Shown: piece after piece, positions 11,276 to 11,353 of the stretch
Position numbering within the stretch: position 1 is the stretch's first letter
Layout of the letters: each line of letters opens with the position of its first letter
Assembly: GCA_000002435.2 (NCBI GenBank)
Contig: AACB03000008.1
Strand: one strand, 5' to 3'
Length of the DNA stretch: 16,058 nt
Origin: Giardia intestinalis
Lineage: Eukaryota
The notes under the pieces: model-generated
Seen by the model: the letters and a program-made list of their open reading frames with translations, nothing else
What the model was told of the DNA's origin: nothing
The model's database searches: none
Made by a program: the position numbers and the translations under genes

Positions 11276-11353
11276 CTTGGGTAGTGAATGCTGTACAATG
11301 GGTGATAGTGTGTGATAGAGGGTGATAGTGTGATGATAGTGTGATAGTGGAGT
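11276..11353 (+). repeat. Intergenic spacer 6 (longest): poly(A) motif + 5 GTGATAG heptamers plus a GTGATGATAG variant (11326-11335) + TGGAGT
   Basis: GTGATAG at 11301-11307, 11311-11317, 11322-11328 and 11341-11347, plus GTGATGATAG. Copy number differs from other spacers. Confidence 0.65.
11283..11289 (+). terminator. poly(A) signal AGTGAAT
   Basis: 8 nt after the canonical stop position 11273-11275. Confidence 0.65.

What the first reader, a model, noticed from the sequence alone, without database searches (positions are those of the whole stretch)
11276..11353. Spacer = extended poly(A) motif + copy-number-variable GTGATAG heptamer array + invariant TGGAGTG(T/A)GAT junction; no AT-rich promoter
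All seven spacers share this order: TGA-CTT(G/A)GGTAGTGAATGCT(G/A)TACAATG(G/T)-, then (N)GTGATAG x 2-5, then TGGAGTG(T/A)GAT, then ATGCACA. Heptamer copy number varies (about 3 in spacers 1, 3, 4, 5; 4 in spacer 2; 5-6 in spacers 6, 7). The last heptamer always supplies the in-frame TAG. Giardia promoters are normally short AT-rich initiator regions. These spacers are G/T-rich with GATA cores, so there is no obvious promoter. Only about 30-50 nt separate the predicted poly(A) site of one unit from the next ORF. The heptamer tract could be a slippage-prone microsatellite, a recombination spacer, or a binding site that keeps the array silent or controls which unit fires.
Basis: partly seen in the sequence, partly recalled or inferred. 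Interest (0 to 1): 0.5.

Follow-up and report, generated by a model that had tools for sequence, protein, structure and literature searches.

The report
Junction spacer of silent Giardia VSP array
The stretch is the short joint between two head-to-tail, promoter-less and start-less surface-antigen pseudogene copies of Giardia; it holds the family's usual poly(A) signal and a small, length-variable 10-base repeat, and it is a real but ordinary feature of an already described gene array.

Summary
The window holds eight head-to-tail Giardia intestinalis (WB-like) VSP units. All seven joints have the same order: TGA, the VSP extended poly(A) signal, TRTACAATG, a GTGATAG tract, then TGGAGTG(T/A)GATATGCACA. 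All 19 exact GTGATAG copies lie in the joints (2.6 expected by chance).

Three corrections apply:
- The tract is an imperfect 10-nt repeat (GTGATAG plus a 3-nt linker, 3-5 cores), not a 7-nt array.
- The "invariant junction" is VSP coding sequence (Trp-Ser-Glu/Val-Ile-Cys). It matches roughly residue 100-140 of full-length VSPs, and other arrays lack it.
- "ATGCACA" is not a start codon. It is out of frame and hits a stop after four or five codons.

Every unit lacks a start codon, a signal peptide and the VSP initiator PyAATGTT, which has 0 matches in 16 kb. Two units are frameshifted. This is a VSP "linear array" of pseudogenes as described by Adam et al. 2010.

The same spacer family occurs in three other Giardia contigs and, translated, in six old WB gene models. 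It enters the VSP body at a different point in each class. This fits slippage plus deletions spreading from the tract. Solitary VSPs and one assemblage-B tandem pair lack the tract.

Best reading: a non-functional junction relic with a slippage-prone microsatellite. I found no published description of the tract itself. Interest is low.

The parts
11273..11275 (+). TGA stop after the CRGKA codons of unit 6. In this unit it is reached only in a shifted frame, because of a 2-nt loss near 11244.
11275..11291 (+). VSP extended poly(A) signal, ACTTGGGTAGTGAATGC. The published consensus is ACUUAGRUAGURAAYRY. Here, and in 5 other spacers, position 5 is G instead of A; spacer 7 matches the consensus exactly. 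The AGTGAA hexamer lies at 11283-11288.
   Evidence: consensus from bioRxiv 10.1101/2022.03.07.483299
11292..11300 (+). TGTACAATG. This is the stretch between the hexamer and the predicted cleavage site. It resembles the ordinary VSP 3' flank, ...AAACG(CG)TCGATG(A/G), of solitary VSP genes.
   Evidence: flanks of L001, L032, L034, L035; the homology is inferred
11301..11347 (+). Imperfect decamer repeat tract of spacer 6: G GTGATAG TGT GTGATAG AGG GTGATAG T GTGA-TGATAG T GTGATAG. It has 5 TGATAG cores with spacings 10, 10, 11, 8. The last core gives a TGA-TAG in frame with unit 7.
11348..11362 (+). TGG AGT GTG ATA TGC = W-S-V-I-C, the first retained codons of the 5'-truncated VSP unit 7.
1859..1909 (+). 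Spacer 1 (51 nt, 3 cores). Identical to spacer 4.
3784..3846 (+). Spacer 2 (63 nt, 4 cores at a regular spacing of 10).
5710..5760 (+). Spacer 3 (51 nt, 3 cores).
7579..7629 (+). Spacer 4 (51 nt, 3 cores).
9394..9444 (+). Spacer 5 (51 nt, 3 cores).
14420..14488 (+). Spacer 7 (69 nt, 5 cores). It carries the canonical ACTTAGG form of the poly(A) signal.
5..1858 (+). psiVSP unit 1. The frame is open from WSVICT to CRGKA-TGA. There is no ATG before residue 190 and no signal peptide.
1910..3783 (+). psiVSP unit 2, frameshifted (shift between about 2096 and 2156).
3847..5709 (+). psiVSP unit 3, open frame, no start codon.
5761..7578 (+). psiVSP unit 4, open frame, no start codon.
7630..9393 (+). 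psiVSP unit 5. Its part from the internal ATG at 7774 equals the database entry 'VSP S7' (AAN52102.1).
9445..11275 (+). psiVSP unit 6. It is frameshifted in the transmembrane-coding part. It is also a mosaic: unit 2/5 type for the first ~50 nt, then unit 4 type.
11348..14419 (+). psiVSP unit 7 (3072 nt, long form), open frame, no start codon.
14489..16058 (+). psiVSP unit 8, cut by the end of the window. It is 96.7% identical to unit 3.

Best explanation
The stretch is the inter-unit joint of a Giardia intestinalis VSP 'linear array', that is, a row of 5'-truncated, promoter-less VSP pseudogene cassettes.

It has four parts:
1. The stop codon and the VSP-specific extended polyadenylation signal of the upstream unit.
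2. About 9 nt that look like ordinary VSP 3' flank.
3. An imperfect 10-bp tandem repeat (GTGATAG + 3 nt, 3-5 cores).
4. The first surviving codons (W-S-E/V-I-C) of the next unit, which starts roughly 100-140 residues into a normal VSP.

The joint was created once, when a truncated VSP copy was placed behind a VSP 3' end. It was then copied along with the units as the array grew.

The repeat tract behaves as a neutral microsatellite. It gains and loses repeat units by replication slippage or unequal exchange. Deletions starting at its 3' edge have removed different amounts of the following VSP body in different arrays.

The joint has no promoter, initiator or start codon. The tract's TGA/TAG triplets close the upstream frame. 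The units are therefore not expressed as VSPs. At most they matter as sequence donors for recombination, as already proposed in the literature.

Shown here: the anatomy, the lack of initiator, start codon and signal peptide, the length variation, the presence of the family in other arrays with different entry points, and its absence next to solitary VSPs.

Inferred: slippage as the mechanism, neutrality, and the direction of the deletion series.
For: Identity of the array:
- The units are VSPs (CRGKA tail, PF03302). They match G. lamblia ATCC 50803 models at 99% and VSP S7 at 100%.
- There are eight head-to-tail units with 51-72-nt joints.
- No unit has an in-frame ATG near its 5' end. All begin at WS(E/V)ICT, which aligns to ...GGCYKTSQ|WSEICT... 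in full-length VSPs.
- Units 2 and 6 are frameshifted.
- PyAATGTT has 0 matches in 16 kb.

The tract:
- The period is 10 and the number of cores differs among paralogous joints.
- Joints attached to closely related units differ by whole or partial repeat units. Spacer 2 + unit 3 and spacer 7 + unit 8 have 96.7% identical units but tracts of 38 and 44 nt.

The same family elsewhere, with three other entry points:
- L031 head continues into WCGGDSMGLLFIGGCY..., 66 nt more of VSP body than the window has.
- L002 and L003 run straight from a GTGATA repeat into TGCACA. This equals the window type minus the segment between two GTGATA copies, the signature of slippage on a 6-nt microhomology.
- The second L031 joint leads into a 70-residue C-terminal stub.
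- Six old WB gene models start MLYSDSDSAMWCGGDSDS... or ...VGDSDSVGLLFMGGCY, which is the tract translated.

Negative evidence:
- Solitary VSP genes of DH, GS-B and P15 have the poly(A) signal but no tract.
- The spacer has no predicted DNA structure (z = 0 to 0.5) and no Rfam family.

Literature:
- Linear arrays hold over half of WB vsp genes. Their intervening regions average 60 bp. No downstream member has the Inr. They are thought to be non-expressed cassettes or remains (PMC2996952).
- The extended PAS is found on 323 VSPs and pVSPs, and pVSPs in arrays lack the 5' portion (bioRxiv 10.1101/2022.03.07.483299).
Against: - The part from the stop codon to CAATG is nearly invariant, at about 95% column identity. 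The unit bodies are only about 72-77% identical between unit groups. That could reflect constraint rather than homogenisation by gene conversion.
- All seven window joints, and the L031 head joint, are multiples of 3 nt even though the repeat period is 10. Pure neutral slippage does not predict this. However, the L002/L003 type (56 nt) breaks the rule, and the excess is marginal (5 of 7 length classes, p about 0.045).
- I could not read the complete WB genome or any transcript data. Both 'silent' and 'neutral' therefore rest on the literature and on the sequence anatomy.
- The origin of the GTGATAG motif is unresolved.
Confidence: 0.7

Rival explanations
1. The tract is a functional recombination element. 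Together with the conserved ~115-nt 3' end of each unit it would bracket every cassette, guiding unequal crossing-over or gene conversion. This would be comparable to the 70-bp repeats upstream of silent VSG genes in Trypanosoma brucei.
For: - Position: one tract lies upstream of every cassette, and a highly conserved block lies downstream.
- The units are mosaics. Unit 6 switches from unit 2/5 type to unit 4 type about 50 nt after the joint.
- The unit groups {1,3,8}, {4,6} and {2,5} are interleaved along the array.
- The literature proposes arrays as cassette reservoirs (PMC2996952; PMC7641422).
Against: - Intact VSP genes, the only possible acceptors, have no tract at the homologous place or upstream (L001, L032, L034). 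The tract therefore cannot provide donor-acceptor homology.
- The one breakpoint I could see lies in coding sequence, not in the tract.
- A head-to-tail VSP pair in assemblage B lacks the tract.
- Any tandem array recombines through its long conserved blocks without needing a 26-47-nt repeat.
Confidence: 0.12
2. The tract is a barrier element that keeps the array silent. It could act as a multi-frame stop-codon block against translation across units, or as a binding site (GATA-like cores) for a repressor or chromatin factor.
For: - Each joint has 7-9 stop codons in the frame shared by the two flanking ORFs, and 2-6 in a second frame.
- The motif is strongly over-represented and strand-specific.
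- The joint is better conserved than the unit bodies.
Against: - The third frame has 0 stops in spacer 3 and only 1-3 elsewhere, so this is not a three-frame block.
- In other WB arrays the tract is read through as an open frame (MLYSDSDS...).
- The units already lack a promoter and a start codon, so no extra barrier is needed.
- No Giardia factor for this motif turned up in my literature searches.
- Copy number varies freely among joints.
Confidence: 0.07
3. The tract is a GU-rich downstream element that helps 3'-end cleavage at the upstream unit's poly(A) signal.
For: - The tract starts about where cleavage is predicted, 13-15 nt after AGTGAA (distance).
- It is G/U-rich.
- Some solitary VSP 3' flanks in assemblage B are also G/T-rich after ...CGATG.
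Against: - Genome-wide work found that Giardia lacks the usual auxiliary elements. GU-rich motifs are depleted, not enriched, downstream of the signal, and CstF orthologues are doubtful (PMC9014877; PMC11529991 abstract).
- Expressed solitary VSPs in DH and P15 have no such tract.
- There is no evidence that these units are transcribed.
Confidence: 0.04
4. On origin only: the first repeat is a relic of a VSP initiator plus start codon and the first signal-peptide codons (CAATG TTG TTG ATA GC = Inr + M-L-L-I-A). On this reading the array began as full-length genes that later lost their 5' ends.
For: P15 full-length VSPs read GCAATGTTGTTGATAGCG and ACAATGTTGTTGATAGCA. The spacer reads ACAATGTGTGATAGAG (spacers 5 and 7) or ACAATGGGTGATAG. 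That is 13 of 14 spacer bases matched, with a 2-nt gap.
Against: - The CAATG is explained equally well, and without an extra breakpoint, as the ordinary VSP 3' flank ...GTCGATG(A/G)G. That flank sits at the same distance after the hexamer in five solitary genes.
- In L031 the sequence GGGTGATAGTATG occurs both as the last repeat and inside the codons homologous to C-G-D-G-Y. This points to amplification of the unit's own 5' end instead.
Confidence: 0.15

Closest known systems
Giardia lamblia vsp 'linear arrays' (Adam et al. 2010, BMC Genomics 11:424, PMC2996952); annotated as psiVSP/pVSP arrays in the 2020 WB assembly and the 2022 Cys-rich-family preprint
   Same: - Head-to-tail vsp copies with very short intervening regions (reported mean 60 bp; here 51-72 nt).
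- Downstream members lack the PyAATGTT initiator and a usable start.
- The 3' end coding CRGKA is conserved.
- Some pairs of members are closely related.
   Different: Nothing differs in kind. The papers I could read do not describe what the intervening sequence is made of. The decamer GTGATAG tract, its copy-number variation and the classes of 5' entry point are added detail.
VSP extended polyadenylation signal ACUUAGRUAGURAAYRY (bioRxiv 10.1101/2022.03.07.483299; general AGURAA signal in PMC9014877)
   Same: The first 17 nt of every joint, counted from the A of TGA, are this motif. It sits directly after the stop codon, as reported for 323 VSPs and pVSPs.
   Different: Six of the seven joints have G instead of A at position 5 (ACTTGGG...). 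The motif accounts for only the first quarter to third of the joint.
Telomere-adjacent psiVSP arrays of Giardia muris (Xu et al. 2020, PMC7641422)
   Same: Tandem arrays of VSP copies without signal peptides, not transcribed, and proposed to be donors for gene conversion.
   Different: This is a different species. The G. muris tail is GCRGK, whereas here it is CRGKA. I did not compare the joints of G. muris arrays.
70-bp repeats upstream of silent VSG cassettes in Trypanosoma brucei (from general knowledge, not tested here)
   Same: A short imperfect repeat lies upstream of each silent surface-antigen cassette, and a conserved block lies at the cassette's 3' end.
   Different: The VSG repeats also occur in the expression sites and serve as the upstream limit of gene conversion. 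Intact Giardia VSP genes carry no GTGATAG tract. Giardia switching is regarded as epigenetic or post-transcriptional rather than recombinational.
Ordinary micro/minisatellites at the junctions of tandemly duplicated genes
   Same: Short unit, imperfect copies, length differences among paralogous copies, and deletions through microhomology.
   Different: The motif is shared by several arrays together with the adjoining poly(A) signal, so it spread by duplication of the whole joint rather than arising independently.

Membership tests
Giardia VSP linear array (psiVSP array) | Two or more adjacent vsp copies in head-to-tail orientation | tested here: met
   There are eight units on the + strand, with junctions at 5, 1910, 3847, 5761, 7630, 9445, 11348 and 14489.
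Giardia VSP linear array (psiVSP array) | Units are vsp genes: conserved 3' end coding the transmembrane domain and CRGKA, and CXXC-rich bodies | tested here: met
   ...CRGKA-TGA codons are present at all seven unit ends. The translation of unit 3 is shown. Hits carry PF03302 and VSP names, with 99-100% identity to G. lamblia/intestinalis entries.
Giardia VSP linear array (psiVSP array) | Very short intervening regions (mean 60 bp; range from overlap to 241 bp) | tested here: met
   The intervening regions are 51, 63, 51, 51, 51, 72 and 69 nt.
Giardia VSP linear array (psiVSP array) | Downstream members lack the initiator PyAATGTT and an N-terminal signal peptide | tested here: met
   YAATGTT has 0 matches on either strand. 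The first in-frame Met lies at residue 48-283. The units start at WS(E/V)ICT, roughly residue 100-140 of full-length VSPs.
VSP extended polyadenylation signal | ACUUAGRUAGURAAYRY within a few nt of the stop codon | tested here: met
   Spacer 7 matches exactly. The other six differ only at position 5 (G for A). In all seven the motif starts at the A of TGA.
Micro/minisatellite (short tandem repeat) | Head-to-tail copies of a short unit | tested here: met
   Tandem Repeats Finder gives period 10 with 3.9-4.1 copies for spacers 6 and 7, and period 20 with 2.2 copies for spacer 2. Core spacing is 10 in most steps. The four 51-nt spacers are too short to score.
Micro/minisatellite (short tandem repeat) | Copy-number variation between copies or alleles | tested here: met
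   Paralogous joints in the window have 3-5 cores, and other arrays have other arrangements. Variation at the same locus between isolates could not be tested.
Giardia promoter / VSP initiator | AT-rich initiator at the start codon; for VSPs, PyAATGTT | tested here: not met
   The longest A/T run in the spacers is 3-5 nt and they are 36% G. There is no PyAATGTT. The nearest approach is CAATGTG in spacers 5 and 7.
Recombination-guiding repeat of the VSG 70-bp-repeat type | The repeat is present upstream of both the silent donors and the expressed acceptor genes | tested here: not met
   The tract is present upstream of each silent unit. It is absent from the intact or solitary VSP genes I read: the coding region and upstream sequence of L001, L032 and L034, and the 3' flanks of L001, L030, L032, L034 and L035.
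Recombination-guiding repeat of the VSG 70-bp-repeat type | Conversion tracts end in the repeat | not testable with these tools
   This needs all arrays and all intact VSPs of complete assemblies. The single breakpoint I saw (unit 6) lies about 50 nt inside the coding sequence.
GU-rich downstream element of poly(A) sites | The organism uses such elements and has the factor (CstF) that reads them | not tested
   Literature only. GU-rich motifs are not enriched, and are even depleted, downstream of Giardia sites, and CstF orthologues are doubtful (PMC9014877).
Structured RNA / known RNA family | A match to an Rfam model, or folding that is more stable than shuffled sequence | tested here: not met
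   There are no Rfam matches in the window. Folding z-scores are 0.0 to 0.5 on both strands.

The most novel reading that the evidence does not exclude
The GTGATAG decamer tract, always coupled to the VSP poly(A) signal, is a selected element of Giardia pseudogene arrays. It could be a recombination or array-maintenance site, or a protein-bound boundary that marks the cassettes as silent donors. On this reading the near-invariance of the joint, and its multiple-of-3 length in eight of the joints read, reflect constraint rather than recent copying.
Probability: 0.1. Interest if true: 0.55.

Novelty: new member of a known kind. Interest (0 to 1): 0.22.

Why it matters
It matters little on its own. 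VSP linear arrays make up over half of the vsp copies in the WB genome. They break short-read assemblies, and nobody knows whether they are a working reservoir for antigen diversity or debris.

A precise description of the joint has practical uses:
- The joint is: extended poly(A) signal, ~9 nt of flank, decamer tract, then a class-specific point of entry into the VSP body.
- It is a simple sequence signature for finding and classifying array members in new Giardia assemblies.
- It helps correct gene models that start inside the joint, such as the 'MLYSDSDS...' proteins, or at internal ATGs, such as 'VSP S7'.
- It is a possible length-polymorphic marker for typing assemblage-A isolates.
- It lets one trace how arrays grew and eroded.

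If the tract turned out to be constrained or protein-bound, it would be the first cis-element tied to the silent part of the Giardia antigen repertoire.

Tried and rejected
1. I scanned the JGI metagenome contigs for GGTAGTGAATGCTRTACA. The 26 loci (L004-L029) are all single chance matches in unrelated sequence, with no Giardia among them.

2. Look-ups of intact WB VSPs on the chromosome-scale assembly (P0003, P0005, P0072) returned 'not on record'. I therefore could not read other WB arrays as DNA or place the window on a chromosome.

3. The assemblage B and E candidates chosen because their gene models start inside the VSP body (P0060, P0032, P0057, P0042) turned out to be solitary or frameshifted VSPs, not arrays. 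Only L035 gave a head-to-tail pair, and it has no tract.

4. Three-frame stop block: rejected. One frame has 0-3 stops.

5. Intron or other structured element: no fold, no Rfam hit, no inverted repeats. From my own knowledge of the Giardia intron consensus, not a tool result, the joint has neither the GTATGT 5' site nor the CTRAC...AG 3' motif.

6. Initiator/signal-peptide relic as the origin of CAATG + TGATAG: considered and not favoured, because the ordinary VSP 3' flank ...CGATG... explains CAATG without an extra breakpoint.

7. GU-rich downstream element: not favoured on the literature.

8. miR2 site: the published target covers 20 nt of coding sequence plus 10 nt of 3' UTR. It overlaps the start of the poly(A) motif, not the tract.

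9. A literature search for GTGATAG together with Giardia gave only primer sequences.

10. The bacterial promoter/terminator scanner was not used, because it does not apply to Giardia.
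Full report
**What the window is.** The 16,058-nt window is a row of eight head-to-tail copies of a Giardia variant-specific surface protein (VSP) gene on the + strand. Each complete copy ends with codons for ...GFLCWWF(V/I)CRGKA followed by TGA. 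A protein search with unit 3 returned only Giardia VSPs carrying Pfam PF03302. The best hit was XP_001705784.1 of G. lamblia ATCC 50803, 99% identical over its whole length. Unit 1 matches it at 422 of 427 residues. The GenBank entry 'variant-specific surface protein S7' (AAN52102.1) is identical to unit 5 read from its internal ATG at 7774. The CRGKA tail rules out G. muris, whose VSPs end in GCRGK (PMC7641422). The source is therefore G. intestinalis assemblage A, isolate WB or a very close relative.

**Checking the observation.**
- The exact 21-mer GGTAGTGAATGCTRTACAATG occurs seven times, against 0 expected.
- TGGAGTGWGATATGCACA follows each of those seven exactly. An eighth copy with one mismatch sits at the very start of the window.
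- All 19 exact GTGATAG copies in the window lie on the + strand inside the seven joints, against 2.6 expected.
- The joints lie at 1859-1909, 3784-3846, 5710-5760, 7579-7629, 9394-9444, 11276-11347 and 14420-14488. Their lengths are 51, 63, 51, 51, 51, 72 and 69 nt, and they hold 3, 4, 3, 3, 3, 5 and 5 TGATAR cores.
- The last core gives a TGA-TAG in the frame of the downstream open frame in all seven.
- The joints are 36% G, 32% T and only 5% C. No A/T run is longer than 5 nt.

**Three corrections.**
1. The repeat is not a heptamer array. Core-to-core spacing is 10 in most steps, with 8, 6 or 11 at the 3' end of the tract. Tandem Repeats Finder reports period 10 or 20, and only for the three longest tracts. 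The unit is GTGATAG plus a 3-nt linker (TGT, AGG, AAG or TGG).
2. The 'invariant junction' TGGAGTG(T/A)GAT is VSP coding sequence. In the frame that stays open to CRGKA it reads W-S-(E/V)-I, followed by C-T. Full-length VSPs contain ...GGCYKTSQWSEICT... (P0005, P0002) or ...PGSEICT.... Nucleotide homology to a full-length P15 VSP starts exactly at AGTGAGATATGCACA.
3. ATGCACA is not a start. That ATG is out of frame with the body and meets TGA or TAG after four or five codons.

**What the units are.**
- No unit has an in-frame Met before residue 48-283.
- All units start roughly 100-140 residues into a normal VSP, so they lack the signal peptide and the first cysteine-rich module.
- Units 2 and 6 are also frameshifted. 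In unit 6 the shift is a 2-nt loss near 11244, in the transmembrane-coding part just upstream of the finding.
- The VSP initiator PyAATGTT is reported on 135 of 136 genuine WB VSPs (bioRxiv 10.1101/2022.03.07.483299). It has no match anywhere in the window on either strand.

This is a 'linear array' as defined by Adam et al. 2010 (PMC2996952). In that paper over half of WB vsp copies lie in such arrays. Their intervening regions average 60 bp, and no downstream member has the initiator. The authors regard the members as non-expressed cassettes or discarded remains. Later annotation calls them psiVSP or pVSP.

**Anatomy of the joint** (coordinates for the one in the finding).
- 11273-11275: TGA.
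- 11275-11291: ACTTGGGTAGTGAATGC, the VSP extended poly(A) signal. The consensus ACUUAGRUAGURAAYRY is found on 323 VSPs and pVSPs. Six of the seven joints have G for A at position 5; spacer 7 matches the consensus.
- 11292-11300: TGTACAATG. In five solitary VSP genes of isolates DH, P15 and GS-B the hexamer is followed at a similar distance by ...CG(CG)TCGATG(A/G). I therefore read this piece as ordinary VSP 3' flank (inference).
- 11301-11347: the decamer tract.
- 11348 onward: the truncated VSP body.

Cleavage in Giardia usually falls 13-15 nt after the hexamer, which is about where the tract starts.

**Related joints elsewhere.** Three contigs from ENA metagenome assemblies carry the same joint family. 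They share the same poly(A) signal, the same (C/T)A(A/G)TG and decamers with the same linkers. The way into the VSP body differs:
- In the head of L031 the tract is followed by TGG TGT GGG GGT GAT AGT ATG GGA CTT CTC TTC ATA GGA GGA TGC TAC. This is homologous to K-C-G-(D/S)-(G/E)-Y-F-L-F-M-G-G-C-Y of full-length VSPs. The body reaches AGC GAG ATA TGC only 66 nt later than in the window.
- In L002 and L003 the tract runs directly into GTGATA|TGCACA. This equals the window's V-type joint minus the segment between two GTGATA copies, as expected from slippage on a 6-nt microhomology.
- A second joint in L031 leads into a 70-residue C-terminal stub. This resembles the vsp13/vsp14 case described by Adam et al..
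- Six old WB gene models (P0004, P0009, P0011, P0110, P0121, P0006) begin MLYSDSDSAMWCGGDSDS... or ...VGDSDSVGLLFMGGCY. That is the joint translated from the ATG inside TGAATGCTG.

The tract is therefore common to several arrays in WB. By contrast, solitary VSP genes have the poly(A) signal but no tract. The only head-to-tail pair I could read from assemblage B (L035, 110-nt intergenic) also lacks it.

**How it most likely came about and behaves.** The simplest account has three steps.
1. A 5'-truncated VSP copy came to lie directly behind a VSP 3' end.
2. That joint was multiplied together with the units as the arrays grew.
3. The short repeat at the joint has since changed length by slippage or unequal exchange, and deletions from its 3' edge have removed varying amounts of the next unit.

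Support for this account:
- The unit groups {1,3,8} (92-97% identical), {4,6} (94%) and {2,5} (92% over the first 525 nt) are interleaved. Other pairs are only about 72-77% identical.
- Joints travel with their units but differ in the tract. Spacer 2 + unit 3 and spacer 7 + unit 8 have 38-nt and 44-nt tracts. Spacers 1 and 4 are identical.
- The three other entry classes form a nested series.

The origin of the motif is open. In L031 the string GGGTGATAGTATG occurs both as the last repeat and inside the codons that align with C-G-D-G-Y. This suggests the repeat was seeded by duplication of the unit's own 5' end. A resemblance of CAATG(T/G)GTGATAG to the initiator plus M-L-L-I-A codons (CAATGTTGTTGATAGC in P15) is an alternative that I rate lower.

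**Function.** I found nothing that calls for one.
- There is no promoter-like or initiator sequence.
- There is no stable DNA fold on either strand (z = 0 to 0.5).
- There are no inverted repeats and no Rfam family.
- A three-frame stop block is ruled out, because one frame has 0-3 stops.
- A GU-rich downstream element is unlikely. Giardia lacks the usual auxiliary elements, and GU-rich motifs are depleted downstream of its poly(A) signals (PMC9014877; PMC11529991).
- A recombination-guiding role like that of the trypanosome 70-bp repeats fails one defining test, because intact VSP genes have no tract to pair with.

Two observations keep a functional reading alive at about 10%.
- The segment from the last ~115 nt of coding sequence to CAATG is 90-96% identical across units whose bodies differ by about 25%. 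The coding part of that block is the known conserved VSP 3' end.
- All seven window joints and the L031 head joint (81 nt) are multiples of 3 although the period is 10. The L002/L003 type (56 nt) is not, and the excess is marginal.

**Comparison with what is known, and novelty.** The array, its short joints, the missing initiator, the missing 5' portions and the extended poly(A) signal are all published. I found no paper that describes the composition of the joint. A full-text search for GTGATAG with Giardia returned only primers, and the Adam 2010 text contains neither 'spacer' nor the motif. What is added here is a small descriptive detail: a decamer microsatellite coupled to the poly(A) signal, and classes of entry point that record how the arrays eroded. 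That makes the finding a new instance of a known kind, with low interest.

**Limits.**
- I could not read the complete WB genome or any expression data.
- Look-ups of proteins on the chromosome-scale assembly failed.
- The metagenome scan gave only chance hits.
- The assemblage of L002, L003 and L031 is undetermined.
- 'Silent' and 'neutral' rest on the sequence anatomy and on the cited literature.

Noticed in passing
all seven spacers (1859-1909 ... 14420-14488); L031:2-82: Every joint in the window is a multiple of 3 nt (51, 63, 51, 51, 51, 72, 69), so the upstream stop codon and the downstream VSP frame are in phase. The L031 head joint (81 nt) is too. The repeat period is 10, so this is not expected. 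The L002/L003 type (56 nt) breaks the rule, and the excess is marginal (about p = 0.045 over length classes).
   Followed up: partly
window 9445-9500 (start of unit 6): Unit 6 is a mosaic. Its first ~50 nt (WSEICTKAEGGLCTAC) are of the unit 2/5 type. From ...TGTAAT ACAGATAGTCAG onward it is 94% identical to unit 4. A recombination or conversion breakpoint therefore lies just inside the unit, in the conserved TGCACTGCTTGTAA stretch.
   Followed up: partly
window ~11244 and ~2096-2156: Two units are broken by frameshifts. Unit 6 has lost 2 nt in the transmembrane-coding CTCTGCTGGTGG (it reads CTTGTGGTGG), so its long frame runs through the TGA into the spacer. Unit 2 changes frame about 190-250 nt after its start.
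   Followed up: partly
window 11348-14419: Unit 7 is 3072 nt, about 1.65 times the length of the other units. Its closest database relative is an 887-residue WB VSP model (P0086, 82% identity). I did not examine how the extra length arose.
   Followed up: no
window 1858-1864 and the same position in spacers 2-6; canonical form at 14419-14425: Six of seven poly(A) motifs read ACTTGGG instead of the consensus ACTTAGR. This base lies in the 10-nt 3'-UTR part of the published miR2 target site of VSP mRNAs (PMC2583053). The change might weaken seed pairing. L002, L003 and L031 have CTCAGG or CTTAGG.
   Followed up: no
window 7774-9393: The database protein 'VSP S7' (AAN52102.1, 539 aa) is unit 5 read from an internal ATG. 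It has no signal peptide and is better regarded as part of a pseudogene. Several old WB models (MLYSDSDS...) likewise start inside a joint.
   Followed up: partly
L035:8311-8420: A head-to-tail VSP pair in assemblage B (GS-B, AHHH01000205.1) has a 110-nt intergenic region with the poly(A) motif and CGATG but no GTGATAG tract. The joint family may therefore be specific to assemblage-A arrays.
   Followed up: partly
window 11345-11356 and 11374-11385: There is an exact 12-nt direct repeat, TAGTGGAGTGTG. The junction of unit 7 repeats the codons for S-G-V-C that lie 29 nt downstream. I could not tell whether this is chance or a local duplication.
   Followed up: no
L001:6300-6700; L033 and L034 upstream of the called genes: Several VSP gene models in the DH, GS-B and P15 draft genomes that are labelled 'partial', or that start inside the body, are full-length genes with frameshifts or stop codons in the 5' part. 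Either they are pseudogenes or the drafts carry homopolymer errors.
   Followed up: no
window, minus strand (e.g. 10786-11457, 11210-11911, 3241-3966): Long antisense ORFs (220-250 codons) cross the joints. They are probably a by-product of the codon composition of the VSP strand. I did not examine them.
   Followed up: no
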